Source: Escherichia phage chee24. From it: a stretch of DNA of 64,000 nt. The DNA is taken from sequence record NC_047885.1; one strand, written 5' to 3'. Position 1 is the first letter of the stretch; each line of letters opens with the position of its first letter. A model generated the notes under the pieces. The model ran no database searches and was not told the DNA's origin. It saw nothing but the letters and a program-made list of their open reading frames with translations. The position numbers and the translations under genes were made by a program. Positions 1,574 through 35,503 of the stretch are shown here, piece after piece.

Positions 1574-3238
1574 TTACGCGAAAAATTTACCGTTTTTAAA
1601 GTCGATCAAAGTGCGCTGACCGTTTGCATAGGTAATAACATGCGTTTGCGTCCAGCTTGACGCGCCAACGTTGTAACCCATGTCCAGACTACCAGACACG
1701 CCAGCGGTGTATACGCCGCCGTAAATGCTGGCGGTATGAGTGTGCCCCGTGTTTAATTTGCCCAATTTCTTAAACTGTTTCGGATTGCCACGGCTCCCGT
1801 TTATGCCATTGTGACCGTGTACGCCGCATTCAATACCTGCAATCTTGAAAGATTGATCAGTGGTCAGAAAAATGGCGTTAAATTCACAACCTGCAACCTT
1901 GCGCAGCGCATAATCTAGCACGTTGAAAGTATCGTCATGATCACCGATTGCCGCGTAAATTGCAGCATTTAGGCGGTGATATAGTTCCGCGTTTGCTGGA
2001 TCGTCTTTAATGTTAGCATTACGATCATCTAACCAGCGGGATAGCGCCAGATCATGATTAGACTCAACAATGATTGTTTGCGAAAAATCGCGCTCCATTG
2101 ACTCCAGCACGCGACCGGTATCGATAAGATCATCCAGAACTTTATCACGTCCGGCGGCATACTGTTTTGCTAGGAATACACCCGAAGCGCGGTTGTGATG
2201 GTTGCGTGATGTAAAGTCGTGAACGTCATGGATAAACTGATATTTTGGTTTAAGAATATCAAGCAAGCTATTTTCGCCAGCCCATGACGCAACGGCGCAA
2301 GCGTCATCCAATTTTTCGGCGTGTACGTCGCCATATTGTAAACCTAAAACGTGCCCCGTTGTTTCATAACATCCGGCGGGAGTGGCGCAAACATTCAGAT
2401 CATAAAACACCCCGCTTTCGTCCATTGTTTCAAGCTGGCGCACAAAAAACTCACCGTCTTCGTCGAACTCAACAATCAGCGCCCCGAAATTATGCAGTGC
2501 TTCCGCTTTCTGTCCTGCTTTCTGCTGAATGTAGTTTTTAAGCGTTGCCGTTCCGGTTGAATACATACGGCGCACAATTTCACCTTTTAAAGCTGGAACG
2601 CTTTCGGCGGTAATTTTTGCCGCTCCAATTGCCAGACCTTCGATATTTAAAGCCGTTGCAGTTTCTGCAAATCCAGAAAGCGGATAATCTGCGGTTGGCA
2701 AAACATTAATTTCAGCCATGAAAGCAAAGCGGCGGTTATTTAAAAACACGTTTTTGCTGCAAATATATTTATCGAACGCGGAATCATATTTGATTCCGTC
2801 GGCGCCCTCGCCATTTTGAAAACCGTTTTTATTATAAATATACTTGCTAACTAGCAAATCAGCACCAATAAATTGGGCGTATTGTTCAAGCGAGGCTAAA
2901 AAGTTTTTATGAGGGAACGTATTATTCTGAATCGATGTAATAATAAAGCGTTTACCCTGCTTTACTTCCCATTGTTCAACCGTGCTAGAAACAATCCCCG
3001 CCGCTTCTGGGCGCTCATCGTTTTTAATGGCTTTTGCTACTTTCGCCGCTTTCGGTTTCGCTGGTTTATTTGCTTCCAGCCAATCGCAAATTGCGGTGGA
3101 GTGTTTTGTTGTATCATAAACCGCTTTAGAAATATCGTCGCACACTTCCAGCTTAGTAGCGCGCAGGCGTTTACCGTAGAAATTGAAATCAGCGGCCATT
3201 TTCAGGATAACGGTTTGTTTTTCTGCGGAAATAACCAT
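1574..3238 (-). CDS. A1: A1-like pre-early protein with calcineurin-like metallophosphoesterase domain
   Basis: 554 aa; phosphoesterase motifs GDVHAE and GHTHT; size and position match T5 A1. Confidence 0.75.
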   Translation of the reverse strand: MVISAEKQTVILKMAADFNFYGKRLRATKLEVCDDISKAVYDTTKHSTAICDWLEANKPAKPKAAKVAKAIKNDERPEAAGIVSSTVEQWEVKQGKRFIITSIQNNTFPHKNFLASLEQYAQFIGADLLVSKYIYNKNGFQNGEGADGIKYDSAFDKYICSKNVFLNNRRFAFMAEINVLPTADYPLSGFAETATALNIEGLAIGAAKITAESVPALKGEIVRRMYSTGTATLKNYIQQKAGQKAEALHNFGALIVEFDEDGEFFVRQLETMDESGVFYDLNVCATPAGCYETTGHVLGLQYGDVHAEKLDDACAVASWAGENSLLDILKPKYQFIHDVHDFTSRNHHNRASGVFLAKQYAAGRDKVLDDLIDTGRVLESMERDFSQTIIVESNHDLALSRWLDDRNANIKDDPANAELYHRLNAAIYAAIGDHDDTFNVLDYALRKVAGCEFNAIFLTTDQSFKIAGIECGVHGHNGINGSRGNPKQFKKLGKLNTGHTHTASIYGGVYTAGVSGSLDMGYNVGASSWTQTHVITYANGQRTLIDFKNGKFFA

Positions 3239-13883: not shown

Positions 13884-14255
13884 TTAATGAAGTTGTTTAC
13901 CACTTCTTAACATAGTGGCCGTTTCCATAAGACCTAGCGTAGCATCACGCTTATTGATCTGTTTACCAAGTTCATCAGTACGTTTACTGATGTAAGCATT
14001 AATAGCCATATTCATAGCTGTAGCGAGATCTTCTTTGGTTATCTCTTCATCGTCTAAAGCTAATTTAGCCAAAGAATCAAATGTGTTAGAGAGTCCTATA
14101 AGATCTGAGGTTTCTCCAGCCAAAATAGGATTAATATTATCTACTGTTACTTCTAGCATGGAGTTGACAATATCTTCACCGTCTATTAGACCAGTTTCAA
14201 TATTACTCTCCCACTCCTTCATCTGCTCCAATAATGGATTTTTCTTTTCTGTCAT
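13884..14255 (-). CDS. hypothetical acidic protein (about 123 aa)
   Basis: Track ORF 13884-14321; internal ATG (MTEKK) preferred because it avoids overlap with 14203-14664; printed text and track differ by one base near 14220. Confidence 0.5.
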   Translation of the reverse strand: MTEKKNPLLEQMKEWESNIETGLIDGEDIVNSMLEVTVDNINPILAGETSDLIGLSNTFDSLAKLALDDEEITKEDLATAMNMAINAYISKRTDELGKQINKRDATLGLMETATMLRSGKQLH

Positions 14256-14664
14256 GGTAGAGGTTTCCTGTGTCAGTCGGTAAGAAGGATGATTGCGTTT
14301 TAGGTGGATGTTGCTTAGCAATCCAGTTAAGAATCAGCACGCGACTAGGAACAATATCGGTGTTATACCAAAAATCGTGAACCCATTGACGAGCGTCTTC
14401 AAACTTACCAAATTTATATGCTTTCTTAAACAATTCAAATCCAAAACAATCTGGTGTAAAGTCTACTTCGCGATATTGAATTACTTTAGAACCAGTTAGG
14501 TCTTGGATCGCTGCATTAATTTCTGTATGTGAGAATTTTGTTTCATGAAACTTATTAAAGAATCGGTAGTTGAAGCGTCCGTTCGTTTCGACAAACAACT
14601 GGATGAAAAGATCGTTAAATTGGTTATCAAACCAGTAATTCTGTAGTTGTTGTAGTGCTGTCAT
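14203..14664 (-). CDS. hypothetical protein (153 aa)
   Basis: ORF in leftward operon. Confidence 0.55.
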   Translation of the reverse strand: MTALQQLQNYWFDNQFNDLFIQLFVETNGRFNYRFFNKFHETKFSHTEINAAIQDLTGSKVIQYREVDFTPDCFGFELFKKAYKFGKFEDARQWVHDFWYNTDIVPSRVLILNWIAKQHPPKTQSSFLPTDTGNLYHDRKEKSIIGADEGVGE

Positions 14665-15338: not shown

Positions 15339-15522
15339 TGCGCTTAATATCGGTCTTCGTCACTTTACCGATTAACATCACCAGTAACATAGAAAGTATA
15401 ATAAGTGGGACTGGAATAACAAATAATGCTACCTTAGCTATATTCTTTGGTGTCCATGTGTGATACTTAGTAACTATAACTCCTACCACGATTAGGTAAA
15501 ATGCTAGAATAAACATCATCAT
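15277..15522 (-). CDS. small membrane protein (81 aa)
   Basis: ORF with two hydrophobic helices. Confidence 0.45.
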   Translation of the reverse strand: MMMFILAFYLIVVGVIVTKYHTWTPKNIAKVALFVIPVPLIILSMLLVMLIGKVTKTDIKRIADELQQSCDMVEDILKDET

Positions 15523-15800
15523 TTTTTAATCTCCGTGATTACCTGTGCACGCATTACTTTAGCAGGTAATTTATTATTCCCGACTATTGCTTCTATACTA
15601 TTTAGTTTTTTCTTAAGAATATCCGAGCGTCTTTGTGCTAATTCAATATCTTGCTCTTGCTCTAGTAAGCGGTGGTGTAGTCCATCATTAGTAATAAGCA
15701 TGCTTTCCATGTTTTTTCGTGCGTTTACAATCCCAATAACTCCACCAATCGCTACTAGCGTAGTAAGAATTAGTAACCCAATAAGAATTTCAATCAACAT
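15519..15800 (-). CDS. small membrane protein (93 aa)
   Basis: ORF with N-terminal TM helix then charged region. Confidence 0.45.
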   Translation of the reverse strand: MLIEILIGLLILTTLVAIGGVIGIVNARKNMESMLITNDGLHHRLLEQEQDIELAQRRSDILKKKLNSIEAIVGNNKLPAKVMRAQVITEIKK

Positions 15801-15963
15801 TAAATATCCTTACATTTTTCATTGTTTGGAACTAGGTTACATAACTCCACATTTAACTCGTGGATAGAATTGTCTAGTTCTGCTAAACGTGTGTGAAGAG
15901 AAACTATACTATATATTAACACTCCTAAAAGGAGTGACAACATAAAAATGGATAGTCTTTCCA

Positions 15964-16233
15964 TTATTTCTTACCTTTCAGTTGTTTAACTTCACGCTCA
16001 AAAGATGCCGCACGACGTTCGGCAGTTGCCTGATGCTCTTTAGCAAAACGTGCTTCTTGTTTTGCAAGGTTGAATGCCATAGCATTCTTGTTAAGAGAAT
16101 CGTACATCTTTTTCATTGCCGGAATAGACATCTTCATGAGCTGTCCTTCAAAACCCTGCATATCGAGGAGAATTGCCAGAACGTTAGCCATTTCATTTTT
16201 AGTCATGTTTTCCATTAGAATTTCCTCTCTCAT
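15964..16233 (-). CDS. hypothetical protein (89 aa)
   Basis: ORF preceded by T5-type promoter at 16248-16276. Confidence 0.5.
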   Translation of the reverse strand: MREEILMENMTKNEMANVLAILLDMQGFEGQLMKMSIPAMKKMYDSLNKNAMAFNLAKQEARFAKEHQATAERRAASFEREVKQLKGKK

Positions 16234-16247
16234 TAATTTATGAACTT

Positions 16248-16276
16248 ATTATACAGAATTTTAAGGCTTAAAGCAA
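16248..16276 (-). promoter_or_regulatory. sigma70-type early promoter (-35 TTGCTT, 17-nt spacer, -10 TATAAT)
   Basis: Reverse complement of ATTATA-N17-AAGCAA; A/T-rich upstream tract. Confidence 0.6.
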
Positions 16277-16293
16277 CTGAATTTTTTAATTAT

Positions 16294-16725
16294 TTACCAA
16301 TCGTTAACAACACCAGAGAACTCAGAAGCAAAAACTTTTTCAAATTTTTCTGCAATTTCAGGATGATCTTTACAGATCAACTCAATACATGCTTCTGGAG
16401 TCATTCCTTCGTCTTCAGGATCACCGTAATATTTGTCCCAAAGATCATCAGGGATGATGTGCTCTGCCAAATCTTGGAAAGAGATTAACTGATAACGTTC
16501 TGCTTCCTCGGCGATAAGGATTTCACAAAGATCTTTACCTATATCGCTACGGTAATCAGCAATTAGCAGGGCATTGCAAGCATGACATTCCCAGACCATC
16601 AAACGTTCAGAGATAGGATTAGACTTATCCTGAACGTAAGACTGGAACAAGGTTCGGAAAGTTGCCTTAACTTGTTCAAACTTATCTGCTGCTGCGAAAA
16701 CTAGAGCTTTATCAACTTTGTTCAT
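16294..16725 (-). CDS. hypothetical acidic protein (143 aa)
   Basis: ORF preceded by promoter at 16756-16784. Confidence 0.55.
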   Translation of the reverse strand: MNKVDKALVFAAADKFEQVKATFRTLFQSYVQDKSNPISERLMVWECHACNALLIADYRSDIGKDLCEILIAEEAERYQLISFQDLAEHIIPDDLWDKYYGDPEDEGMTPEACIELICKDHPEIAEKFEKVFASEFSGVVNDW

Positions 16726-16755
16726 TTTGATTCCTTCTCATCAATTTATAAAGTA

Positions 16756-16784
16756 ATTATACAGAAACTTAAGCATTTTAGCAA
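16756..16784 (-). promoter_or_regulatory. sigma70-type early promoter (-35 TTGCTA, -10 TATAAT)
   Basis: ATTATA-N17-TAGCAA on plus strand. Confidence 0.6.
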
Positions 16785-16892
16785 ATAAAACTTTCAATTA
16801 AAATGCCTAACCCTGTACCAACAGCAATACAAATAATTATAAGTATTGCAACTAATTGTACTACTCGTTTAATAATAGCCTCAGCTATATAC

Positions 16893-17414
16893 TTAGACAT
16901 TTAACATCCAGCTAGTTTTACCATGTGAAGTATACTTACCACTCATGATGTCTTCCAGTCGTACTGGTGATTTTGCATACTCAACACAAATGTTAATATA
17001 ACGAGGGTCTCCCATTAACTCAAAGTGAGTATGCCCATGTAAGTTCTTTTTACCCCTCAGCTCCTCTGGATGTACTGGAGCATGGGAAAGCCAAAAGTTT
17101 TTATATTTAACTAGTGATTGTATGTTATCTACAACTCCTACTAAGTCTTTGAAAGATAATCCTTCTCGCTCTAAGTCGTGGTTCCCCAAAACTAATGTAG
17201 TTCTAACATTGCTAAAGAGTTTTTCGAACTTCTCCAAGCCATTTCTAGATACAAATGCATCTCCTAAAATATAAAATACTGTACGCTTATCTTTCATGGA
17301 TGTAATAGTATCCATAATAAATTCATCATGCTCTTCCATAGTAGAGAAGATTGGTCTGAATTTAGTAATATTTGCATGTCCTAAGTGGAGATCACTCCAA
17401 AAGCAAACTTTCAT
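16893..17414 (-). CDS. metallophosphoesterase (calcineurin-like)
   Basis: 173 aa; motifs DLHLGH, GDAF, LGNHD, GHTH. Confidence 0.65.
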   Translation of the reverse strand: MKVCFWSDLHLGHANITKFRPIFSTMEEHDEFIMDTITSMKDKRTVFYILGDAFVSRNGLEKFEKLFSNVRTTLVLGNHDLEREGLSFKDLVGVVDNIQSLVKYKNFWLSHAPVHPEELRGKKNLHGHTHFELMGDPRYINICVEYAKSPVRLEDIMSGKYTSHGKTSWMLNV

Positions 17415-18289
17415 TAAAGAATCCTCTGTATGCCACAGCTATCTTCTCGAAGCGTGGTAAATGTTGTGATTTTCCCAGTTTCATCATTAACTTGCGCAAC
17501 CGTCAACTGCCCGTTGAAAACACCGCCAGTATCTAAGTAAACACGATTTTGGTGTAAAATAGGGTAAGGTACTCCAGTATGTCCATGAAACACAAAGTCT
17601 ACCCCACTAACTGGAGGTACTTCTACCATGTATTTTTCTTTAAACCCAGAATAACGCTGGAAATAGGGGTGTTCCTCACCATTTTTGGACAAATGGAAGC
17701 CTATTTCTTGTACTACATCTCGATCCCATAAATATGGCTCAACATGGTATCCAGGATGGTCATGTGGGTCTTCCTTAGCTGCTTCTACTTGTGCAATAAG
17801 GTTATCCCATACTGGAGTTTCTACTTCGTTACCACATTCTTTGTATGTAAAAGGTACACCACCATGAACAACACCATACTTCTTGCCACGATGCAGCACA
17901 GTCAGAAATACTGGAAGTTTTTCAGCCATGTCTTCGGCAATATTTTTAATGGTATCTGCGTCCAGCTCATTCATAGCCCACATACCACCATTATACATCC
18001 AGTTAGCCCAATCTCCTACAATCATAAACTGGTCATGATTTCCACGAACGCTACAAAAACGTGGATTATATAAGAATTTAGCTAAAACTTGTAGGTTCTG
18101 CGTGCCTCGATCAATTAAGTCACCAACACATACTACGCAATCTTTCTTGCCGTTATAGCCAGCTAATTGTAGGGCATCTTCTAGCAAATCATTGCATCCA
18201 TGAATATCGCCAACAAAGAATAAGTTAACATCATCAGGTACTACTAGTGTTTTATGCACATTAAATTCTTTTTTCATAATTATTCCCAA
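17414..18289 (-). CDS. serine/threonine protein phosphatase-like metallophosphatase
   Basis: 291 aa; motifs GDIHG, GDLIDRG, GNHD typical of PPP-family phosphatases. Confidence 0.7.
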   Translation of the reverse strand: MGIIMKKEFNVHKTLVVPDDVNLFFVGDIHGCNDLLEDALQLAGYNGKKDCVVCVGDLIDRGTQNLQVLAKFLYNPRFCSVRGNHDQFMIVGDWANWMYNGGMWAMNELDADTIKNIAEDMAEKLPVFLTVLHRGKKYGVVHGGVPFTYKECGNEVETPVWDNLIAQVEAAKEDPHDHPGYHVEPYLWDRDVVQEIGFHLSKNGEEHPYFQRYSGFKEKYMVEVPPVSGVDFVFHGHTGVPYPILHQNRVYLDTGGVFNGQLTVAQVNDETGKITTFTTLREDSCGIQRIL

Positions 18290-18525
18290 ATAACATTTAA
18301 AATAGTTGTGCCATATTCATTAGATAGTTGGAGAGTATAACCCTCTTTATAGAGGGTTTTTATAGCTTCATAACTAATTTCGTCACGATTAAGCTGTACA
18401 AAAGAACCTCCAATCTCTACAGAAGATACTATCCTCCGCTTAACCCATCTATACGTTTTCTTTCGGCTCTTAAGGGACGCGGCTCTATTTATCCTAGCTA
18501 AACGTTTTGCTTGTTCCGCTAACAT
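18280..18525 (-). CDS. hypothetical protein (81 aa)
   Basis: ORF. Confidence 0.45.
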   Translation of the reverse strand: MLAEQAKRLARINRAASLKSRKKTYRWVKRRIVSSVEIGGSFVQLNRDEISYEAIKTLYKEGYTLQLSNEYGTTILNVIWE

Positions 18526-18529
18526 TTAA

Positions 18530-18964
18530 TTATCTCCAATGGTTAGTATGTTTTTCAGCCTCTTCATCATTAGGCTCAAATACTACGTGGCAATCTACAG
18601 CTTCCCAAAAGGCTTCACGGATTAAGGAGTTTTTAGCTGAGATATCTAACTCTTCCCACTCCTCCAAAGTCTCTAAGTCTGTATCAACTTCGGTATCACA
18701 GCCAACCAAACCCAGAGACACAACAAGAGTAAGACGATCTTCACGTTCTTCGGGATAAACCTCAGCATACTCCCAAGCAGCTTCTTCAACATAATATTGT
18801 TGTTCCTTTTCTGGAAGTGACTTATACTTTTCCTCTGTAATACCCATCTCAACAGCGCGAGTACCACAAACTACGTTATTATTAATAATTAGATATGCAT
18901 AGTTCATTGGAATACTCCTATTTCTTGTAGTGCGTAGATAGCCCTTAGTATGACTAGAACCCAT
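18530..18964 (-). CDS. hypothetical acidic protein (144 aa)
   Basis: ORF preceded by promoter at 18998-19026. Confidence 0.5.
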   Translation of the reverse strand: MGSSHTKGYLRTTRNRSIPMNYAYLIINNNVVCGTRAVEMGITEEKYKSLPEKEQQYYVEEAAWEYAEVYPEEREDRLTLVVSLGLVGCDTEVDTDLETLEEWEELDISAKNSLIREAFWEAVDCHVVFEPNDEEAEKHTNHWR

Positions 18965-18997
18965 ACGAAGATAGCCTTCTCATCAATTTATACAAAT

Positions 18998-19026
18998 ATT
19001 ATACCAAAATTTTTAGCAAAAAGCAA
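18998..19026 (-). promoter_or_regulatory. sigma70-type early promoter (-35 TTGCTT, -10 TATAAT)
   Basis: ATTATA-N17-AAGCAA on plus strand. Confidence 0.55.
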
Positions 19027-19067
19027 GTAAAATAAAAGCCTGATCCGCTAAGATCAGGCTTGGTTTA

Positions 19068-19358
19068 TTAATCCTCTGGATTATCATCCAGGAAATTTTT
19101 AATAGCTTCGTGCATAGTTTCTTTACGAAGCTGACGTCCAATCAAAATATGATTAGCTTCTACTCGACCATTAGGTAAGCGATCCGCTAGAACTACTACA
19201 GGAACTTGGCGTACGCCAAATTTCTGCATTAATTCTGTATTATCAGTCTCTTTATGGACTTCCAAATTATACTCATTGACTACTTTATCAAATACTGGCT
19301 CAAACATTTTGCAAGGATTGCAAGTAGAACCTTTCAATAGATATACTAATTTACTCAT
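19068..19358 (-). CDS. thioredoxin/glutaredoxin-like protein
   Basis: 96 aa; CxxC redox motif (CNPC); thioredoxin-fold size. Confidence 0.6.
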   Translation of the reverse strand: MSKLVYLLKGSTCNPCKMFEPVFDKVVNEYNLEVHKETDNTELMQKFGVRQVPVVVLADRLPNGRVEANHILIGRQLRKETMHEAIKNFLDDNPED

Positions 19359-19782
19359 AATTATTAATGGCCTCTAAGAAGTTTTTCATAGTTTTTACGG
19401 TTGCGGTGCTCAGATCAAGATTTACACCCAAACACTCGGTTAATGCTTTCTGATAAGGAGCCTTTAATCTGCCTTCTGGGACTTCTACCTTCTTATATTC
19501 TTTATTTTTGACCTTTTTAATCATAGTCTCTAGTACAAGAAGTGGTAATTTAGCACCTTCAATATCAGTACCCAAAAGTTCAGTTAAAATTTTATTAAGA
19601 TCAAGACGAGTTAACTTTTTGCCCTTAGACATAGATGCACCTACCTTTGTATCAATAGATTTTTCCGCTTTCTTTTCGAGCTTTTTGTACTCAGGAGAGT
19701 CATGATCACGGAGTGCAATGTTTAGCTCGTAATGTGGTATACGAAAATGTTCCGCCATTTGAGTGTAGAAACGATCAGACAT
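19351..19782 (-). CDS. hypothetical protein (143 aa)
   Basis: ORF. Confidence 0.5.
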   Translation of the reverse strand: MSDRFYTQMAEHFRIPHYELNIALRDHDSPEYKKLEKKAEKSIDTKVGASMSKGKKLTRLDLNKILTELLGTDIEGAKLPLLVLETMIKKVKNKEYKKVEVPEGRLKAPYQKALTECLGVNLDLSTATVKTMKNFLEAINNYE

Positions 19783-19857
19783 AATATATACCTCTCTTAA
19801 CTAATTTATGTATATATTATATAATAACTAGGGCTAAAAGTCAACTACTTTTTTATC

Positions 19858-20274
19858 TTAATCTACTGCATGTATAAATCTTTTCCTAACTAGATACATA
19901 GTTATTGGGTAAATTGAGTACATAAGTATCGGGGAGAAAAGGGTGAAATACGCTGTAACTCCCCCAGCTAACATCAAAGGTATTAATGCTAGAGTAAGGG
20001 CCATAAGAATCATACCGAATGAAACAGCCAAAGCTATGGATATAGGATTCTCTAGTTCCATCCATAACCAACAATATTTCGTATCTCTATGGCAATTGCA
20101 TTTACAAACGCCGAATGAACCCATAATTATATACTCTAGTCCGTGAATAACCTTTATTAATAAGCTATTTCGGGTAGTTAATGCAACGATAGTAAAGACT
20201 ATCATTAAAACGAATACTACTAGACTTATTTTCCAGATACCTAGTAGCATCATAGTGAATAGTTCTGCAAACAT
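19858..20274 (-). CDS. multi-pass membrane protein (138 aa)
   Basis: ORF with 3-4 hydrophobic helices; directly downstream of endolysin. Confidence 0.5.
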   Translation of the reverse strand: MFAELFTMMLLGIWKISLVVFVLMIVFTIVALTTRNSLLIKVIHGLEYIIMGSFGVCKCNCHRDTKYCWLWMELENPISIALAVSFGMILMALTLALIPLMLAGGVTAYFTLFSPILMYSIYPITMYLVRKRFIHAVD

Positions 20275-28027: not shown

Positions 28028-28104
28028 GCTCTTTTAATGGTAGTTAGTAGTGGATTTGAACCACTATAGTCGCTCCGTATGAAGGAGGTGCATAACCACT
28101 CTGC
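28028..28104 (-). tRNA. tRNA-Met (anticodon CAT; could be fMet, Met or Ile2-type)
   Basis: Hand-folded cloverleaf: 7-bp acceptor, T-loop GGTTCAAATCC, anticodon loop TTCATAC, encoded CCA. Confidence 0.7.
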
Positions 28105-28209
28105 CAACTAACTATTATGTTTTACTAGACTAAGTAAGTATTCTTTGTACTCTTTAGGCCAATTAGCTTTTTTAAACTTTCCTGGACGCATAGTCTTAAT
28201 TCCTAAATT

Positions 28210-28286
28210 TGGTACTCCGGGAGGGATTTAAACCCCCGATCTCTCGGTTATCAGCCGAGTGCTTTAGATCGCTAAGCTACCGAAGC
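28210..28286 (-). tRNA. tRNA-Ile (GAT)
   Basis: Hand-folded; anticodon loop CTGATAA; acceptor with G-U pairs; CCA encoded. Confidence 0.65.
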
Positions 28287-28287
28287 A

Positions 28288-28494
28288 TTAATATTTGGTT
28301 GCAGAACGTTTACCATTTCTAGGCGCACCGGGAAGTCGGGCACATTCCGCCATTTTTCTTTTTATTTTGCGGATGTTTTCAGGTGTTTGATCTTCTGGTT
28401 TTAGGCCAGATACATTACACCATAGTTTACCCTCCCATGCTGTAATGATCATTACGCCGTTACACATAATCTTTTCTGTAAAAGAAATTCTCAT
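28288..28494 (-). CDS. hypothetical protein (68 aa)
   Basis: ORF between tRNA genes. Confidence 0.4.
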   Translation of the reverse strand: MRISFTEKIMCNGVMIITAWEGKLWCNVSGLKPEDQTPENIRKIKRKMAECARLPGAPRNGKRSATKY

Positions 28495-28787
28495 TATCGT
28501 ATCTCGTTTAGGTAAGAAGTATAATGGAATTTAGCTTCTCCAGTCTTATCTATTTCTACCTCAGTTCGTGGTACTTGACGAACTACATCATGAATCATCT
28601 TATAGCGAATGCCTTTAGCTGGTTCATGATCTTTTGGAAATACCTGTTTAACCGTTACTACTTTATACTCTTCACGCGGTGTTAACACAACTACTTGATC
28701 ACCTTCTTTGATTTTCCAAGAAGATGGAAATTCATAGGTATATCTTTGGCCACCAGTTTGGAATACTACAGAAAGATAACGCTTCAT
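28494..28787 (-). CDS. hypothetical protein (97 aa)
   Basis: ORF preceded by promoter at 28818-28846. Confidence 0.5.
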   Translation of the reverse strand: MKRYLSVVFQTGGQRYTYEFPSSWKIKEGDQVVVLTPREEYKVVTVKQVFPKDHEPAKGIRYKMIHDVVRQVPRTEVEIDKTGEAKFHYTSYLNEIR

Positions 28788-28817
28788 TTGGTTTCCCTCC
28801 CATTAATTTATATAAAT

Positions 28818-28846
28818 ATTATAACAAGAAATAAGAGAGAAGGCAA
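28818..28846 (-). promoter_or_regulatory. sigma70-type early promoter (-35 TTGCCT, -10 TATAAT)
   Basis: ATTATA-N17-AGGCAA; same 27-nt conserved core. Confidence 0.55.
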
Positions 28847-28861
28847 ATGAATTTTTAAATT

Positions 28862-28936
28862 TGGTGCTCCCACCAGGAATCGAACCCGGTTCAGATGCTT
28901 ACAAGGCAACTGCATCGCCAGCAATGCTTTAGGAGC
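28862..28936 (-). tRNA. tRNA-Thr (TGT)
   Basis: Hand-folded; T-loop GGTTCGATTCC; anticodon loop CTTGTAA. Confidence 0.65.
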
Positions 28937-29103
28937 GATAATCCCATTATTTCAATGGGATTTCTTTTTCAAATACAGGGGATTTATCTGACATTACTGT
29001 CATTGCCAACTGCTGAAGAAACTCGAAAGTTAGCTTTAAACGTTCTTCGCCTAATTCAATCTCAACGTATTTCTTTTGTTTGTCAACCTTTAATTTTAGG
29101 TTA

Positions 29104-29325
29104 TCAGCCATCTTCGGATTCTCGTTGCTTGGCTACTGCTAGCCAGTCTGGTAAAAGAAACTTAGTACGAAACTCTTCATACGTTTCTTCTGGGTAAAAG
29201 CTAAAACCTCCTTTCTCATCATTCAAGATAACAGAGCCGTCAGTTTGTTCATAAGCTCGGTATGTTTCCCCAATAATGATAACTCGTTTATCGGTACTTT
29301 TATTACGAAACTCAAAAACGTGCAT
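29104..29325 (-). CDS. hypothetical protein (73 aa)
   Basis: ORF between tRNA genes. Confidence 0.4.
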   Translation of the reverse strand: MHVFEFRNKSTDKRVIIIGETYRAYEQTDGSVILNDEKGGFSFYPEETYEEFRTKFLLPDWLAVAKQRESEDG

Positions 29326-29339
29326 AGAGATTCCTTATT

Positions 29340-29414
29340 TGGTGCGGGATACGAGAGTCGAACTCGTGTCTACTGGTTGGAAGCCAGTTATTCTAACCAC
29401 TGAACTAATCACGC
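29340..29414 (-). tRNA. tRNA-Gly (TCC)
   Basis: Hand-folded; anticodon arm ACTGG-CTTCCAA-CCAGT; T-loop TTCGACT. Confidence 0.65.
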
Positions 29415-29421
29415 ATTAATT

Positions 29422-29497
29422 TGGCTGGAGAAGGAGGAATCGAACCTACCATTAACGGAGTCAAAGGCCGTTGTGCTAACCGTTACACTACTCTCCA
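29422..29497 (-). tRNA. tRNA-Gln (TTG)
   Basis: Hand-folded; anticodon loop CTTTGAC; T-loop TTCGATT. Confidence 0.6.
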
Positions 29498-29503
29498 ATA
29501 ATT

Positions 29504-29579
29504 TGGCTGGGATGCCACGGATCGAACGTGGAACCTTCGGAGTCAGAGGCCGACGATCTGCCAATTGATCTACATCCCA
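29504..29579 (-). tRNA. tRNA-Gln (CTG)
   Basis: Hand-folded; anticodon loop CTCTGAC; perfect T-stem CCACG/CGTGG. Confidence 0.65.
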
Positions 29580-29592
29580 ATAATTCTTTACT

Positions 29593-29787
29593 CTACGGAA
29601 GTGGAGTAGTTGGCTCAGGTTCTTCAAGGCGCTTACCTTCATGATCTACTCGAATGACTCCGCATCCTTCGCAAACCACAACTGCACCATAACCTTCTTT
29701 GACTTCGGCTTCTGTAATCAGACCAGATAAGTCACCAGTATCTCTGCCCCACATATCAAGGGAGCATTGCTTGCAGAAATCAGCCAT
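29593..29787 (-). CDS. Cys-rich small protein (64 aa)
   Basis: ORF with CxxC..CxxC; between tRNA genes. Confidence 0.4.
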   Translation of the reverse strand: MADFCKQCSLDMWGRDTGDLSGLITEAEVKEGYGAVVVCEGCGVIRVDHEGKRLEEPEPTTPLP

Positions 29788-29811
29788 ATTTTATTTCCTA
29801 TTTAAGTTAAT

Positions 29812-29889
29812 TTGGGGTGGCTAGTGGAATTCGAATCCACATAGGCCTGATTCACAATCAGGATCATTAACCAATTATGATATAGCCAC
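29812..29889 (-). tRNA. tRNA-His (GTG)
   Basis: Hand-folded; anticodon arm CCTGA-TTGTGAA-TCAGG; extra 5' G typical of tRNA-His. Confidence 0.7.
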
Positions 29890-30117
29890 AATTGAAAACT
29901 CGCAGGGTTAGCGAAACCATCCTCAATTAGCATGTTCTAGAATACTAATCAAGTTATCTCCTATTGCACGCAGCTCAAGACGAGTACGAATTTTCAATTG
30001 TGGCGGCTCTCAGAAACTCTTCTATTCTAGCCCCAGAAGCTTACCCCCGAACGCATGTCGGGAAAGTCTTTCCAAGCGCATCAAATAGCACCGTTACACT
30101 TTGAGCCATTGATATAT

Positions 30118-30203
30118 CAAGGAACAGAAGGAGTTGAACCTTCACGAGATAGACCATTTATCTCAACCGCTTTTAAGGTATATTTCTAGGAGTGGATGTT
30201 CCT
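30118..30203 (-). other. tRNA-like element (perfect acceptor and T-arm, non-canonical D/anticodon region)
   Basis: Acceptor AGGAACA/TGTTCCT, T-arm GAAGG-TTCAACT-CCTTC, internal hairpin GAGATA..TATCTC; no standard anticodon loop found. Confidence 0.35.
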
Positions 30204-30257
30204 AGTAAACCTATTCGGCAGTCCCGTCTACCAATTCCGGCATATTCCAAGAATTTT

Positions 30258-30431
30258 TTATAAACCAGCAGAAGCCTCATTTAAAGCATCAACAATAGCT
30301 TCACGCTGGGTCATTCCGTACCCGGTGGAATCTAGGTGCGGCAAATAAGCCATCCACCCCTTATCTGTTTCATGAAGACATGCTTTAAATTTTTTACCAT
30401 CCTTCATTGTTACAGTAACTGTTTTGCTCAT
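30258..30431 (-). CDS. hypothetical small protein (57 aa)
   Basis: Hand-translated ORF with AAGGAAG RBS. Confidence 0.35.
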   Translation of the reverse strand: MSKTVTVTMKDGKKFKACLHETDKGWMAYLPHLDSTGYGMTQREAIVDALNEASAGL

Positions 30432-30451
30432 AAGACTTCCTTATAGTTAAT

Positions 30452-30541
30452 TGGCAGAAGATAATGGAGTCGAACCATCACCGTATCACTACAGCGGGCT
30501 GGTTTTCAAGACCAGTTACGTACCACTACGTCCTATCTTCT
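30452..30541 (-). tRNA. tRNA-Ser (TGA), class II
   Basis: 90 nt; anticodon arm CTGGT-CTTGAAA-ACCAG; long variable arm. Confidence 0.65.
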
Positions 30542-30554
30542 AGTATTTATTATA

Positions 30555-30902
30555 CTAATAGTCACTCGTACTAGTGAAATCTTCTACTTTTCCACAAATT
30601 TTACAAGTCCTACGATGATAGTAGGTAATTTTTACTTTAGACCAGCCATCGTGATCATTACCTAGGTTTTCTGTTACTCCCCAAGTATGGGAACACTCAT
30701 TTTCAATTTGCTTAGTAAGAGCGTTATAGCGAGTATAAAACTCCTCCTGGGCAATAGCAAACTCTTTCTGTAGTTTATCACGAGCAATAATAGCACGTTC
30801 CAGATATGTTAAATCGGGCATTCCAGCTTTTTCAGCAGCATCTATAACCTTATCTTCATCTAAAGATGCTAAAAACTCTAGAGCTTTATCTTTTGCTAAC
30901 AT
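30555..30902 (-). CDS. hypothetical protein (115 aa)
   Basis: ORF. Confidence 0.5.
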   Translation of the reverse strand: MLAKDKALEFLASLDEDKVIDAAEKAGMPDLTYLERAIIARDKLQKEFAIAQEEFYTRYNALTKQIENECSHTWGVTENLGNDHDGWSKVKITYYHRRTCKICGKVEDFTSTSDY

Positions 30903-30924
30903 TATTATTATTACCTCAAGTGTT

Positions 30925-31015
30925 TGGCGGAAGAGGAGAGATTTGAACTCTCAAGCCGTTTTACCAGTCAGCCACTTTCCAAGCGGTTTTCGTCGCCAAT
31001 TCGATTTGCTCTTCC
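30925..31015 (-). tRNA. tRNA-Ser (GGA), class II
   Basis: 91 nt; perfect T-arm GAGAG-TTCAAAT-CTCTC; anticodon loop TTGGAAA; long variable arm; resembles E. coli tRNA-Ser architecture. Confidence 0.55.
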
Positions 31016-31127
31016 AATAATAAGATGATGCCTCTATCACGCCAGACAGTTACGCCTCGCTGGGATTCGAACCCATTAAAACAGCTCAACCGAGATAGTA
31101 GGTTTAATTTACTCTGACCATCAAATT

Positions 31128-31204
31128 TGGTGCGTGACAAGGGATTCGAACCCTCAAAACCCGACTTCTAAGGACGGTATGTATGCCAATTCCATCAATC
31201 ACGC
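31128..31204 (-). tRNA. tRNA with anticodon TAG (Leu-type anticodon, class I shape)
   Basis: 77 nt; 7-bp acceptor, T-loop TTCGAAT, anticodon loop CTTAGAA, discriminator A; short variable arm. Confidence 0.5.
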
Positions 31205-31209
31205 GTATT

Positions 31210-31288
31210 TGGTGGAGGATAACGAATTCGAATCGTTCTGATGTCCTCGGTGCAAGCGAGGTGTCCACTCCCAGCAGACCCATCCCCC
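31210..31288 (-). tRNA. tRNA-Ala (TGC)
   Basis: Hand-folded; anticodon arm CCTCG-CTTGCAC-CGAGG; G3-U70 pair in acceptor stem. Confidence 0.65.
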
Positions 31289-31546
31289 AAAATCTTTAGT
31301 TTACTAAGGCTATTAGCTCGGCGTAACTACAGCACCTTCGCTTCGAGCGGAAGGAACTGCGTCATCTCGCAAACCCGATACACTATTCAGTTGCCATGAA
31401 TCTAGTGGACTAATCTAGAACTTCTCCCAAATCGTAGGGATCGTGCTTTTTGGCAGCCAGTCCTAGGTCGAGCTAATACCTTAGTGAACTATGATGAGGA
31501 TTTCTCCCCATCAATTTATATAAATATTATAACAAGAAATTAAGCA

Positions 31547-31906
31547 TTAAGCAAGTACATTTTTGCAGATTTCTTGTAATTCCTTTACATCACGAACGTA
31601 AAGGTAGTCTGAACTTCCAGAGTGCATACTTTGCATAAACACACCCTCATCTGGCGCAGTATCCTTCAGAGTAATTCCTAACCAAAAAGCGGCAAAACGA
31701 GGTGTTACCTCACCTTGACTTGCCTTGAATACATCGGCTTCTGTGATCTCCTGACCAGTAGAAAGTCCCATATACGGTACGTTCAGATCAATATCTTTGT
31801 AGAATTCAGCTAGGTCTTGTTCGAAGTCCCAACCTTTAGAGATAGCGAACTCTATTGTTACATGACCGAAATAGCCTTGAACCTTGCTTGATAATTGCAT
31901 TTGCAA
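31547..31906 (-). CDS. hypothetical protein (119 aa)
   Basis: ORF. Confidence 0.5.
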   Translation of the reverse strand: MQMQLSSKVQGYFGHVTIEFAISKGWDFEQDLAEFYKDIDLNVPYMGLSTGQEITEADVFKASQGEVTPRFAAFWLGITLKDTAPDEGVFMQSMHSGSSDYLYVRDVKELQEICKNVLA

Positions 31907-31925
31907 TTCCTTATTTTGAGTTAAT

Positions 31926-31999
31926 TGGTACTCGGTGATAGAATCGAACTATCGCAACCGCCGTGTAAAGACGGGGTTCTCCCATTAAACTAACCGAGC
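31926..31999 (-). tRNA. tRNA-Val (TAC)
   Basis: Hand-folded; perfect T-arm GATAG-TTCGATT-CTATC; anticodon loop TTTACAC. Confidence 0.6.
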
Positions 32000-32132
32000 A
32001 AAAGATTTGCTACTAAAAATGCTTCGAACAGAAATTCACAAAATCCCGCTAAAAACATACCTATTGTAAAATCGGCAGAAAATACATAGGAATCTTTTAT
32101 TTTCTGCTTCATTAAGTAAAACCAGATAGTCA

Positions 32133-32450
32133 TTAAAATCTCTCCATTCTAAAGCCAATGAAGTAAGGTGCATTACACGGAACATGCTTAAGATCTTTAA
32201 GAGTAATTTTACGTCCTAAGCGTCGTTCCATACAAGTGAAACATAGAACAATATCTTTGGGCTGCTCTTTTCTTATCTGATCCCAGACCCAATCTTCAAC
32301 CATACACATTTCATGGTATTGTTCACAGTCTCGACAATAATGACACTGATGTTCTGGTACTTTTTGATTTTTAATACACAGTTCAGTAAAGCGTTTTCCG
32401 GCTCTGCCAGACATTTCTGATATTGTTTCTAGAACTTTGTTAATATTCAT
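32133..32450 (-). CDS. Cys/His-rich protein (105 aa)
   Basis: ORF with several Cys/His clusters. Confidence 0.45.
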   Translation of the reverse strand: MNINKVLETISEMSGRAGKRFTELCIKNQKVPEHQCHYCRDCEQYHEMCMVEDWVWDQIRKEQPKDIVLCFTCMERRLGRKITLKDLKHVPCNAPYFIGFRMERF

Positions 32451-32467
32451 AACAAATTCCTTTAAAT

Positions 32468-32546
32468 TGGTAGATCGCCTGGGACTCGAACCCAGAACCT
32501 TCCGATTAAAAGTCGGATGCTACTAAACCTATTGAGCTAGCGACCT
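32468..32546 (-). tRNA. tRNA-Lys (TTT)
   Basis: Hand-folded; anticodon arm TCCGA-CTTTTAA-TCGGA; T-arm CTGGG-TTCGAGT-CCCAG. Confidence 0.7.
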
Positions 32547-32739
32547 ATTAGTAGCCATTATATACTTCTTTAATAGAATAGACTTTTAGGTAAGAATGAT
32601 TAATCCCAAACTCCGCCATTACTTCTTTTTCATTTTTTCCATAATGTGCAAGTAAGAATCTTGAGGTATTATTACCTAAACGTTTGTCACTTACTACTAA
32701 TCGAAATACTTTCATTTCGAAATCCTCTATTAAAAGGGA

Positions 32740-32813
32740 AGCGGGTGCAGGAATCGAACCTACCTCTTTCTAGCTTATGAGACTAGCGATCTCTACCAGA
32801 GATCTAACCCGCA
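32740..32813 (-). tRNA. tRNA-Met/Ile2 (CAT)
   Basis: Hand-folded; anticodon arm CTAGT-CTCATAA-GCTAG; CCA not encoded; acceptor register uncertain. Confidence 0.55.
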
Positions 32814-32819
32814 ATTGTT

Positions 32820-32895
32820 TGGTCAGTGCGGCAGGACTCGAACCTGCGACCCGAAGCATCCAAGGCTCCCACGCTACCAACTGCGCTACGCACTG
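32820..32895 (-). tRNA. tRNA-Pro (TGG)
   Basis: Hand-folded; perfect acceptor; D-arm GCGC-AGTTGGTA-GCGT; anticodon loop CTTGGAT. Confidence 0.7.
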
Positions 32896-33347
32896 TTAAT
32901 TTTGTTAACTCACTTTATAAGATATATTATACAGAGAATTAAGTAAAATAGCAAATGAATTTTTAATAAATTTACTTATTATGTAGGCCGCCTGGAGGCT
33001 ACCAACCCCACGGCTGACAAAGAAGTTTGCGAGACTTCTCTTAAAAGCCAGAATAGACCCGCCGGTCTATCGGAACCTACATAATAAGTAAACTTTATAG
33101 TGTCATTCTAGGCAGGACTCGAACCTGCTATCACTTGTGCGGACTTACGAGAACCATTCTTTCACTCGAATCGAACGAGCTTCTGCCCTCGCCAAGCTGG
33201 TTTCCCCCATCAACCACGCTAGAATGTTAGATTGTTTTCAGTGCAAGAGTCCGAGTCTTGGACACGACCGCTTCGCAAGTACATAGGCAGCTTATCATGA
33301 GTCAGCACTTCCGAATTGCTAGCTCCGTGTTCTGCACTGAAATTTTA

Positions 33348-33695
33348 TTAGTTTAATCGTAAAGTATTATCTACTTCACCATTAATTGTTCGGCATTCCT
33401 CTGGAATTGCCGGGGTGGCCTTGTATTCCCACCATTCAGCACCGTCATATTCCCCACGTTCTAGCCAAGTTCCATCGGCAAACCATACATTACCATAAAG
33501 TAATTGTCCGCCGTATCCAGAATCATATTCAAAGTCTAGGTTATTAAGAAAATCCTCAATATCTTCTTCTGTATAGCCTAAAGGTAATACCCAGACTTTT
33601 TTGTCCCCATAATACCCAAATTCTATTTTAATACACTTAACTTCAGAATTAGTATTTTTTAAGGCAAGTAACAGCTCTTCTTTAGCATTACGCAT
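33348..33695 (-). CDS. hypothetical protein (115 aa)
   Basis: ORF. Confidence 0.5.
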   Translation of the reverse strand: MRNAKEELLLALKNTNSEVKCIKIEFGYYGDKKVWVLPLGYTEEDIEDFLNNLDFEYDSGYGGQLLYGNVWFADGTWLERGEYDGAEWWEYKATPAIPEECRTINGEVDNTLRLN

Positions 33696-33720
33696 AATAT
33701 ATTCTCATACTGAATTAATT

Positions 33721-33797
33721 TGGCGCGACCGATGGGATTTGAACCCACATTCTCTCCCGTGACAGGGGAGTACCATTACCAAGCCAGCCCCGGTCGC
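33721..33797 (-). tRNA. tRNA-Asp (GTC)
   Basis: Hand-folded; anticodon arm CTCCC-CTGTCAC-GGGAG; T-loop TTCAAAT. Confidence 0.7.
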
Positions 33798-33806
33798 ATA
33801 ATTTAT

Positions 33807-34667: not shown

Positions 34668-34688
34668 TACTTCTTTCCTTTAGTAATT

Positions 34689-35501: not shown

Positions 35502-35503
35502 TT

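What the first reader, a model, noticed from the sequence alone, without database searches (positions are those of the whole stretch)
16893..18289. Adjacent pair of metallophosphatases
Two consecutive calcineurin-like phosphoesterases are present, one with full PPP Ser/Thr phosphatase motifs (GDIHG, GDLIDRG, GNHD). They may dephosphorylate host proteins or nucleotide second messengers used in defence signalling.
Basis: partly seen in the sequence, partly recalled or inferred. Interest (0 to 1): 0.35.

Follow-up and report, generated by a model that had tools for sequence, protein, structure and literature searches.

The report
Two known T5 early phosphoesterase genes
The two neighbouring genes are real, intact metal-dependent phosphoesterases, but they are the long-annotated T5.035 (lambda-phosphatase-like) and T5.034 (D29 Gp66-like phosphodiesterase) early genes of a T5-like phage, so the finding is ordinary and their substrates remain untested.

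Summary
On the minus strand, 17414-18277 (287 aa) and 16893-17414 (173 aa) both pass the Pfam Metallophos cut-off and overlap by one base (TAATG).

The window is 100% identical over the queried 2.2 kb to T5-like phages pork27, pork29 and saus47N. The two genes are orthologues of T5.035 and T5.034, annotated as phosphatase and phosphoesterase since 2004-05.

- **Large protein:** a lambda phosphatase (NinI)/PrpA-type enzyme. Every catalytic residue is invariant, and it carries two helical inserts and a C-terminal extension. One paper states that the classical T5 late-transcription gene C2 maps to this ORF.
- **Small protein:** not a PPP phosphatase. It belongs to the COG4186/phrog_547 family and is clearly homologous to mycobacteriophage D29 Gp66, a published 2',3'-cyclic-nucleotide phosphodiesterase. 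Its nearest folds are aq_1665, Mre11 and the P. putida MPE nuclease.

The two are not duplicates, and both are under strong purifying selection (dN/dS 0.05-0.11). Adjacency is limited to Tequintavirus/Epseptimavirus-like phages; the one Klebsiella and one Vibrio T5-like phage examined had only the large gene at the syntenic locus. Nothing here supports a role in defence signalling. Novelty: already known. Interest is low.

The parts
17414..18277 (-). Lambda-phosphatase (NinI)/PrpA-type PPP-family metallophosphatase, 287 aa; orthologue of T5.035. It has two helical inserts (about residues 155-180 and 190-222) and a C-terminal extension relative to lambda phosphatase.
   Evidence: Family matches: PF00149 at 58.5 bits; phrog_246 at E 1e-91; PDB 1g5b by sequence at E 2e-32; NCBIfam PrpA model at E 9e-28, below its cut-off. 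Residues D24, H26, D53, R57, N80, H81, H138, R186 and H233 are invariant in 45 homologues and align to the lambda phosphatase active site. The AF2 model has pLDDT 94.4 and its best PDB fold is 1g5b, TM 0.81 on the target. It is 97.6% identical to T5.035.
16893..17414 (-). Small metallophosphoesterase, 173 aa, of the COG4186/phrog_547/D29 Gp66 family; orthologue of T5.034. Predicted phosphodiesterase.
   Evidence: Family matches: PF00149 at 30.1 bits; phrog_547 at E 3e-54. All metal-ligand motifs are invariant in 48 homologues. The AF2 model has pLDDT 95.8. Foldseek hits are 1xm7 (E 3e-10), Mre11, and P. putida MPE 6nvo. The family profile matches D29 Gp66 with hhalign probability 99.5%, E 7e-23, full length. 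It is 96% identical to T5.034.
18280..18525 (-). 81-aa ORF immediately upstream of the phosphatase (T5.036 orthologue), function unknown, in the same transcription unit.
   Evidence: ORF. Its stop lies 2 nt before the phosphatase ATG. It is 81-96% identical in T5-like loci. No Pfam hit. The RefSeq label 'major head protein' is implausible for an 81-aa early gene.
18530..18907 (-). 125-aa DUF7167 ORF, the first gene of the operon in this phage. It is present in BF23 and absent from T5.
   Evidence: Annotated as P27_0035 and BF23_00039. PF23768 at E 3e-6. T5 goes directly from the promoter to T5.036.
18998..19026 (-). Sigma-70 early promoter of the operon: TTGCTT, 17-nt spacer, TGGTATAAT (extended -10).
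   Evidence: Read from the sequence. It is almost fully conserved in the window, BF23 and T5. It coincides with the promoter features annotated in T5 and BF23. It was missed by the simple scan because its -35 hexamer matches only 3 of 6.
19036..19061 (-). Rho-independent terminator hairpin ending the upstream thioredoxin unit, directly before the promoter.
   Evidence: 11-bp stem followed by a T run. Annotated as a terminator at the same place in T5 and BF23.
16778..16900 (-). 40-aa hydrophobic ORF overlapping the stop of the small phosphoesterase by 8 nt; last ORF of the coupled chain.
   Evidence: It is 80-90% identical in 15 T5-like loci. Annotated in pork27 and BF23 but not in T5 NC_005859.
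16756..16784 (-). Next early promoter (TTGCTA, 17-nt spacer, TATAAT), equivalent to T5 P-F30. It marks the downstream limit of the unit.
   Evidence: 10 of 12 consensus matches. T5 annotates promoter P-F30 at the same relative position.

Best explanation
The two genes are early genes of a Tequintavirus (T5-like phage). They are transcribed by host sigma-70 RNA polymerase from the promoter at 19026-18998 as one translationally coupled chain: DUF7167 ORF, 81-aa ORF, large phosphatase, small phosphoesterase, 40-aa peptide.

**Large protein (T5.035 orthologue).** It is an active-looking binuclear Mn2+ phosphatase of the lambda phosphatase/PrpA branch of the PPP family. Its most likely activity (inferred) is broad phosphomonoesterase action on phosphoproteins in the infected cell. 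If the published mapping of T5 gene C2 to this ORF is right, its role would be to permit the early-to-late transcription switch indirectly, by dephosphorylating a host or phage factor.

**Small protein (T5.034 orthologue).** It is a separate, unrelated-by-duplication member of the superfamily and belongs to the D29 Gp66/COG4186 family. Its most likely activity (inferred from that one characterised relative and from its fold neighbours) is as a phosphodiesterase on nucleotide or nucleic-acid-end substrates such as 2',3'-cyclic phosphates.

**Shown versus inferred.** Gene structure, family membership, intact active sites, purifying selection and synteny are shown here. Substrates and biological roles are inferred.
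For: - **Identity and annotation:**
- **Operon signals:**
- **Large protein:** PDB 1g5b at E 2e-32 and all active-site residues invariant; fold match to 1g5b with TM 0.81 on the target.
- **C2 link:** PMC7472727 states that the C2 mutation maps to the ORF for a putative 32-kDa Ser/Thr phosphatase and that the effect of C2 on RNA polymerase is probably indirect. A 287-aa protein is about that size, although T5 record AY543070 gives both T5.034 and T5.035 that product name.
- **Small protein:** hhalign to D29 Gp66 at probability 99.5%, E 7e-23. Gp66 is described as a 2',3'-cyclic nucleotide phosphodiesterase using mono- and diesters and cAMP (Dutta et al. 2014, as cited and summarised in PMC12287305).
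- **Fold neighbours of the small protein:** aq_1665, Mre11, P. putida MPE.
- **Selection:** dN/dS 0.05-0.11 for both genes.
- **Synteny at distance:** the pair is kept, still overlapping, in a 77-kb metagenomic T5-like contig at only 38% and 50% identity.
Against: - No enzymology exists for either T5-type protein.
- The C2 assignment rests on one unreferenced sentence in one paper and could not be checked. The 1970s papers are not held, and no T5 GenBank record labels the gene C2.
- In the CRISPRi-ART knock-down screen of T5, both T5.034 and T5.035 scored 'Not Fit'. That is unexpected for a gene defined by conditional-lethal amber mutants. However, several annotated virion genes and the primase also scored 'Not Fit', so the screen is insensitive.
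- Lambda phosphatase itself also hydrolyses 2',3'-cyclic nucleotides (PMC2190708), so a protein substrate is not assured.
- D29 Gp66 is only about 28-31% identical, and its physiological substrate is also unknown.
Confidence: 0.6

Rival explanations
1. Counter-defence. One or both enzymes destroy nucleotide immune signals (cyclic oligonucleotides, cCMP/cUMP, and the like) or reverse phosphorylation by host defence kinases.
For: - Both are early genes.
- The one characterised relative of the small protein hydrolyses cyclic nucleotides.
- A comparative-genomics review predicts that some phage calcineurin-like phosphodiesterases counter nucleotide signals (PMC7824862).
- A different mycobacteriophage metallophosphoesterase (Gp48) has a counter-defence phenotype (PMC12287305).
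Against: - The Gp48/Bxb1 gp47/D29 gp54-type enzyme is not related to the small protein (hhalign probability 3.7%).
- The known anti-CBASS, anti-Pycsar and anti-type III enzymes (Acb1, Apyc1, ring nucleases) have other folds (established knowledge). None appears among the fold hits.
- The small gene sits in DNA or nucleotide-metabolism neighbourhoods in other phages rather than in anti-defence clusters.
- Both genes are strongly conserved rather than patchy within Tequintavirus.
Confidence: 0.13
2. RNA end healing. The small enzyme opens 2',3'-cyclic phosphate ends and the large one removes the resulting phosphate, repairing or neutralising tRNA/mRNA cleaved by host ribotoxins.
For: - Lambda phosphatase and the homologous phosphatase module of C. 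thermocellum Pnkp both have 2',3'-cyclic phosphodiesterase activity (PMC2190708).
- The large protein weakly hits the bacterial Pnkp model (TIGR04075, E 2e-8), the CthPnkp phosphatase structure 4j6o, and a PHROG annotated as RNA ligase (phrog_8238).
- Gp66 is a 2',3'-cNMP phosphodiesterase.
- The phage carries 26 tRNA genes.
Against: - No RNA ligase or polynucleotide 5'-kinase is annotated anywhere in the 64-kb window.
- Removing the 3'-phosphate would block the host RtcB pathway (established knowledge).
- The Pnkp model score of 33 bits is far below its cut-off of 750.
- The pair is not conserved as a pair in the Klebsiella and Vibrio T5-like loci examined.
Confidence: 0.1
3. The large protein is an ApaH-like dinucleoside-polyphosphate hydrolase or Np4-RNA decapping enzyme rather than a protein phosphatase.
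For: Second-tier matches to ApaH: PDB 9t9n at E 1e-9 and 2qjc at E 4e-8; NCBIfam NF001204 at E 5e-16; 2qjc is the second-best fold hit.
Against: - The match to lambda phosphatase and PrpA is far better (E 2e-32 and 9e-28).
- ApaH models score 59 and 35 bits against cut-offs of 176 and 223.
- The ApaH alignment covers only the N-terminal half.
Confidence: 0.07
4. The small protein is a DNA nuclease (Mre11/PdeM-like) acting on host or replicating phage DNA.
For: - Fold hits to Mre11 and to the P. putida MPE ssDNA endonuclease.
- TIGR04123 PdeM at E 5e-9.
- In other phages the gene lies next to helicase, primase or exonuclease genes.
Against: - The PdeM model scores 36 bits against a cut-off of 150.
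- TM-scores to Mre11 and MPE are only 0.42-0.52.
- T5 host DNA degradation is attributed to pre-early A1, reported as necessary and sufficient (bioRxiv 10.64898/2026.04.02.716235), and occurs before this gene enters the cell.
- The characterised relative Gp66 was described as a nucleotide phosphodiesterase.
Confidence: 0.1

Closest known systems
Bacteriophage T5 genes T5.035 and T5.034 (NC_005859 / AY543070 / AY692264 / AY587007)
   Same: Orthologues: 97.6% and 96.0% amino-acid identity. They have the same order, the same one-base overlap, the same upstream promoter and terminator, and the same neighbours (thioredoxin, endolysin, holin, Clp protease, dNMP kinase).
   Different: This phage, like BF23, has an extra DUF7167 ORF between the promoter and the T5.036 orthologue.
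Bacteriophage lambda Ser/Thr phosphatase NinI (PDB 1g5b) and E. coli PrpA/PrpB
   Same: Same PPP-family motifs, metal ligands and phosphate-binding arginines. About 31-35% identity, and the best fold match.
   Different: The T5-type protein is 66 residues longer, with two helical inserts around the R186 region and a C-terminal beta extension. It is encoded in a virulent phage's early operon rather than the lambdoid nin region. It scores below the PrpA/PrpB equivalog cut-offs.
Mycobacteriophage D29 Gp66 (2',3'-cyclic nucleotide phosphodiesterase; Dutta et al. 2014)
   Same: Full-length profile homology (probability 99.5%, E 7e-23) and the same motif set, including H13, H115 and the RYI/N region. 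Similar size (199 versus 173 aa).
   Different: Only about 28-31% identity. Gp66 has insertions around motifs III to V. The host clade and genomic context differ.
Aquifex aeolicus aq_1665 (PDB 1xm7), Mre11, and Pseudomonas putida MPE/PdeM (PDB 6nvo)
   Same: Nearest solved folds to the small protein, sharing the binuclear metallophosphoesterase core.
   Different: aq_1665 has no known function. Mre11 and MPE match only over the core (TM 0.42-0.52), and the PdeM family model is far below its cut-off.

Membership tests
PPP-family lambda-phosphatase/NinI-like phosphatases (large protein) | Signature motifs GDxHG, GDxVDRG and GNH[ED]. | tested here: met
   GDIHG (23-27), GDLIDRG (52-58) and GNHD (79-82) are present. 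G23/D24/H26/G27, G52/D53/D56/R57/G58 and G79/N80/H81 are invariant or at least 90% conserved in 45 homologues.
PPP-family lambda-phosphatase/NinI-like phosphatases (large protein) | Distal metal ligands and phosphate-binding residues equivalent to lambda H139, R162 and H186. | tested here: met
   H138, R186 and H233 are invariant and align with the lambda residues.
PPP-family lambda-phosphatase/NinI-like phosphatases (large protein) | Fold of lambda phosphatase. | tested here: met
   AF2 pLDDT is 94.4. The best PDB hit is 1g5b at E 1e-19, TM 0.81 normalised on the target.
PPP-family lambda-phosphatase/NinI-like phosphatases (large protein) | Mn2+-dependent phosphoprotein phosphatase activity. 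| not testable with these tools
   Needs purified protein. No published assay was found.
E. coli PrpA/PrpB equivalogs (NCBIfam NF008516 / NF007425) | Score above the curated equivalog cut-off. | tested here: not met
   97.8 bits against a cut-off of 326, and 76.7 against 332. The protein is related but is not an equivalog.
ApaH symmetrical Ap4A hydrolase (large protein) | Score above the ApaH model cut-offs and full-length alignment. | tested here: not met
   58.9 bits against a cut-off of 176, and 34.5 against 222.85. Only the N-terminal half aligns.
D29 Gp66 / COG4186 / phrog_547 phosphoesterases (small protein) | Five metallophosphoesterase motifs (DxH, GD, GNH[DE], H, GHxH). | tested here: met
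   D8, H10, G51, D52, G77, N78, H79, D80, H111, H128 and H130 are invariant in 48 sequences.
D29 Gp66 / COG4186 / phrog_547 phosphoesterases (small protein) | Full-length sequence homology to family members. | tested here: met
   phrog_547 at E 3e-54. hhalign to Gp66 at probability 99.5%, E 7e-23, over 159 columns. T5 record AY692264 notes COG4186.
D29 Gp66 / COG4186 / phrog_547 phosphoesterases (small protein) | [quoted passage not shown] | not testable with these tools
   Known only for Gp66, from the literature.
PdeM ligase-associated DNA-damage-response endonuclease (small protein) | TIGR04123 score above cut-off, and linkage to a ligase/Lhr helicase operon. | tested here: not met
   35.9 bits against a cut-off of 150. 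There is no ligase or helicase neighbour.
Mycobacteriophage Gp48 / Bxb1 gp47 / D29 gp54-type metallophosphoesterase (counter-defence nuclease) | Homology to that family. | tested here: not met
   The small-protein profile against D29 gp54 gives hhalign probability 3.7%.
Tandem paralogue pair | Significant mutual similarity of the two proteins. | tested here: not met
   BLASTP gives E 2.3. The profile-profile match is limited to motifs I-III (probability 87%, 64 columns).

The most novel reading that the evidence does not exclude
The two enzymes might form a sequential two-step pathway. The Gp66-like phosphodiesterase would open a cyclic or diester phosphate on a nucleotide signal or a cleaved RNA end, and the lambda-phosphatase-like enzyme would remove the resulting monoester. 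This would inactivate a host immune or stress signal early in T5 infection. Separately, the PPP phosphatase might be the long-sought C2 function that licenses T5 late transcription.
Probability: 0.1. Interest if true: 0.55.

Novelty: already known. Interest (0 to 1): 0.15.

Why it matters
As a genome feature this is a routine re-discovery. Both genes are annotated in the source record and in phage T5 itself.

The residual interest is experimental. No substrate is known for either T5-type enzyme. The claimed identity of the phosphatase with classical gene C2 would tie a PPP phosphatase to the unsolved early-to-late transcription switch of T5. The small enzyme's family occurs in about 1,000 phage genomes with only one biochemically studied member.

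Tried and rejected
- **Tandem duplication:** rejected.
- **Small protein in the Gp48/Bxb1 gp47 counter-defence family:** rejected.
- **RNA-repair partners:** I looked for an RNA ligase or polynucleotide kinase in the whole window annotation and found none.
- **Structured RNAs around the genes:** none found.
- **Functional context of the small gene elsewhere:** I checked KVP40, Kayvirus, Moazamivirus, Vibrio phage VPALA and two jumbo-phage contigs. The only pattern is loose association with nucleotide or DNA-metabolism genes. No NinI-like neighbour was found.
- **Distant relatives in IMG/VR:** the alignment-based scan failed because no conserved stretch was usable. The single-protein scan gave only close T5-like loci.
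- **The 1974-75 C2 papers:** not held. Searches for 'gene C2' gave nothing further.
- **Papers on phage phosphatases versus defence kinases:** nothing relevant to T5.
- **Upstream 81-aa ORF as a conserved third member of the module:** it is conserved only within Tequintavirus.
- **T5 A1 against Pfam:** no hit at E <= 0.01. Its metallophosphatase nature therefore rests on the literature only.
Full report
**Where the window comes from.** The 2.2 kb around the finding is 100% identical to the T5-like phages pork27, pork29, saus47N, saus111K and poul124 (Tequintavirus chee24). It is 92-95% identical to many other T5-like phages. In pork27 the two ORFs are already annotated as 'serine/threonine protein phosphatase' (P27_0033) and 'phosphoesterase' (P27_0032). 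In T5 itself the orthologues are T5.035 and T5.034. All three independent T5 records from 2004-05 annotate them as a Ser/Thr phosphatase (COG0639, IPR006186) and a metallophosphoesterase (COG4186). The source paper for this phage even used T5.035 as a phylogenetic marker (PMC5816814).

**The observation.** One search lists two consecutive minus-strand ORFs.
- The large one runs 17414..18289 from a TTG. The ATG at 18277 (287 aa) is the start used by all records and matches the length of the closest homologues.
- The small one runs 16893..17414 (173 aa).
- The two share one base (TAATG). The upstream 81-aa ORF ends 2 nt before the phosphatase ATG, and a 40-aa hydrophobic ORF overlaps the end of the small gene by 8 nt.
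- Both proteins exceed the Pfam Metallophos gathering score.
- dN/dS against six T5-like phages is 0.05-0.08 for the large gene and 0.05-0.11 for the small gene. Both are functional coding genes, and the short plus-strand ORFs in the region are shadows.
- No Rfam family matches in 15500-20000.

**Transcription unit.** A terminator hairpin (19061-19036) is followed immediately by TTGCTT, a 17-nt spacer and TGGTATAAT (19026-18998). This segment is almost fully conserved in the window, BF23 and T5, and coincides with the promoters annotated in those records. The next strong promoter-like site (TTGCTA, 17-nt spacer, TATAAT; 16784-16756) corresponds to T5 P-F30. The unit is therefore:

1. DUF7167 ORF (18530-18907; present in BF23, absent in T5)
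2. 81-aa ORF
3. large phosphatase
4. small phosphoesterase
5. 40-aa peptide

All of this lies in the early region, between the thioredoxin/endolysin/holin genes and the RNA-polymerase-binding T5.026 orthologue.

**The large protein.**
- By sequence it matches lambda phosphatase (1g5b, E 2e-32). ApaH-type Ap4A hydrolases match far more weakly, and eukaryotic PP1 only marginally. It falls in PHROG 246, 'NinI-like'.
- It is nearest to E. coli PrpA/PrpB in NCBIfam but below their equivalog cut-offs.
- In alignments of 29 and 45 homologues, D24, H26, D53, R57, N80, H81, H138, R186 and H233 are invariant. These are the counterparts of the lambda metal ligands and phosphate-binding arginines.
- Relative to lambda phosphatase it has two inserts (about residues 155-180 and 190-222, helical in the model) and a C-terminal beta extension. 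The first insert is shared with many shorter homologues. The second is largely restricted to T5-like phages.
- The AF2 model is confident (pLDDT 94.4). Its best PDB match is 1g5b, followed by an ApaH-like protein, Shewanella-type and eukaryotic PPPs, and the CthPnkp phosphatase domain.

**The small protein.** It is not a PPP phosphatase.
- It belongs to PHROG 547. It has only weak sequence matches to aq_1665 (1xm7) and the PdeM model.
- All generic metallophosphoesterase motifs are invariant, as are further residues H13, H115 and Y139, with R120 and R138 conserved in at least 90% of sequences.
- Its AF2 model (pLDDT 95.8) is closest to aq_1665 (function unknown), then Mre11 and the P. putida MPE nuclease. 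Against viral models it matches 'COG4186' and 'phosphoesterase' proteins of many large phages.
- The KVP40 homologue is annotated as similar to SP:O64258. From memory, not checked here, O64258 may be D29 gp66. I therefore tested D29 directly: the family profile aligns full-length to D29 Gp66 (probability 99.5%, E 7e-23). It does not align to D29 gp54, the Bxb1 gp47/A10ZJ24 Gp48 type.
[quoted passage not shown] 2014, as cited and summarised in PMC12287305).

**Relation between the two.** They are not duplicates. BLASTP shows no similarity, and profile comparison detects only the shared motif I-III region.

**Distribution.**
- The small family occurs in 1,038 phage records: T5-like phages, Kayvirus, KVP40-like and Acinetobacter T4-like phages, AR9, a crAss-like phage and jumbo phages.
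- The large family occurs in 1,321 records: T5-like phages, lambdoids, P1 Ppp, phi92/rV5-like phages and Vibrio phages.
- Outside T5-like phages, the small gene has no NinI-like neighbour in the four contexts examined.
- Among the T5-like loci held (several being duplicate records of T5 itself), nearly all have the two genes abutting. S124 (L021) and the Epseptimavirus GreteKellenberger (L027) have one or two small ORFs between them.
- A 77-kb metagenomic T5-like contig keeps the overlapping pair at 38% and 50% identity.
- In the one Klebsiella and one Vibrio T5-like phage examined, the large gene sits at the syntenic place without the small one nearby. Consistent with this, only 15 Klebsiella phage records hold the small gene against 111 for the large one.
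- Within Tequintavirus the large gene exists as two allele types (at least 92% versus 75-78% identity), while the adjacent small gene stays 94-97% identical. The two therefore recombine independently.
- The pair is thus a lineage-specific juxtaposition, not an obligate module.

**Function.** There is no enzymology for either T5-type protein.
- **C2 lead.** The only functional lead for the large gene is a statement in PMC7472727. [quoted passage not shown] My recollection, not checked here, is that C2 mutants are also defective in late gene expression. A 287-aa protein fits that size.
- **Limits of that lead.** The statement carries no reference. No T5 record labels the gene C2. The 1970s papers could not be read.
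- **Knock-down screen.** In the dCas13d knock-down screen of T5, both T5.034 and T5.035 scored 'Not Fit'. This is mild evidence against essentiality, but several annotated virion genes and the primase scored the same, so the screen is insensitive.
- **Substrate is open.** Lambda phosphatase itself has phosphodiesterase and 2',3'-cyclic phosphodiesterase activity (PMC2190708), so a non-protein substrate cannot be excluded.
- **RNA repair.** This reading is weakened by the absence of any annotated RNA ligase or polynucleotide kinase in the 64-kb window.
- **Host DNA degradation.** A role for the small enzyme here is unlikely. Pre-early A1, itself a predicted metallophosphatase, is reported to be necessary and sufficient (bioRxiv 10.64898/2026.04.02.716235).
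- **Defence signalling.** Nothing found here supports an attack on defence second messengers. The characterised enzymes of that kind have other folds (established knowledge), and none appears among the fold hits.

**Verdict.** The feature is already known and annotated. Interest is low. The only open questions are experimental: the substrates, and whether the phosphatase is the C2 late-transcription function.

Noticed in passing
window 17414-18277 versus loci L010, L015, L019, L021, L027: Among Tequintaviruses the large phosphatase occurs as two allele types (at least 92% versus 75-78% aa identity), while the abutting small phosphoesterase stays 94-97% identical. In Epseptimavirus the reverse holds (large 79%, small 54%). 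This implies a recombination boundary at or near the gene junction.
   Followed up: partly
window 18280-18525 (-): The 81-aa early ORF upstream of the phosphatase (T5.036 orthologue) is labelled 'major head protein' in several RefSeq records through PHROG propagation. It has no Pfam hit, and the label is implausible for a small early gene.
   Followed up: partly
window 14203-14664 (-): A 153-aa ORF matches T5.026 in length and map position. T5.026 is the RNA-polymerase-binding protein implicated in the early-to-late switch (PMC7472727). Homology was not tested here. In the pork27 record only a 231-bp CDS (14202-14432) is annotated, so that annotation appears truncated.
   Followed up: no
window 16778-16900 (-): A 40-aa hydrophobic ORF overlaps the stop of the small phosphoesterase by 8 nt. 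It is conserved at 80-90% in 15 T5-like loci. It is annotated in pork27 and BF23 but not in T5 NC_005859.
   Followed up: partly
window 18530-18907 (-): A DUF7167 ORF lies between the operon promoter and the T5.036 orthologue. It is present in this phage and BF23 but absent from T5, so it is an indel in the early operon.
   Followed up: partly
window 1574-3238 (-): This is the A1 orthologue (554 aa). The literature describes A1 as a predicted metallophosphatase/calcineurin-like phosphodiesterase that is necessary and sufficient for host DNA degradation. It gave no Pfam hit at E <= 0.01 here. If the literature is right, the phage encodes at least three proteins of this fold.
   Followed up: partly
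database records, not the window: Short records named 'Listeria phage LM 4-11-1' and 'LM 4-14-1' (2.5-7.6 kb) are about 97% identical to these T5-like genes. So are proteins attributed to Brucella melitensis and Enterococcus faecalis. These are probably contaminated or mislabelled submissions.
   Followed up: no
window 28038-41095 (-): There is a cluster of 26 tRNA genes interspersed with small ORFs. The window also carries SIR2-family, PhoH, class Ia and class III ribonucleotide reductase, thymidylate synthase and DHFR genes. This is the usual T5 early-region content.
   Followed up: no
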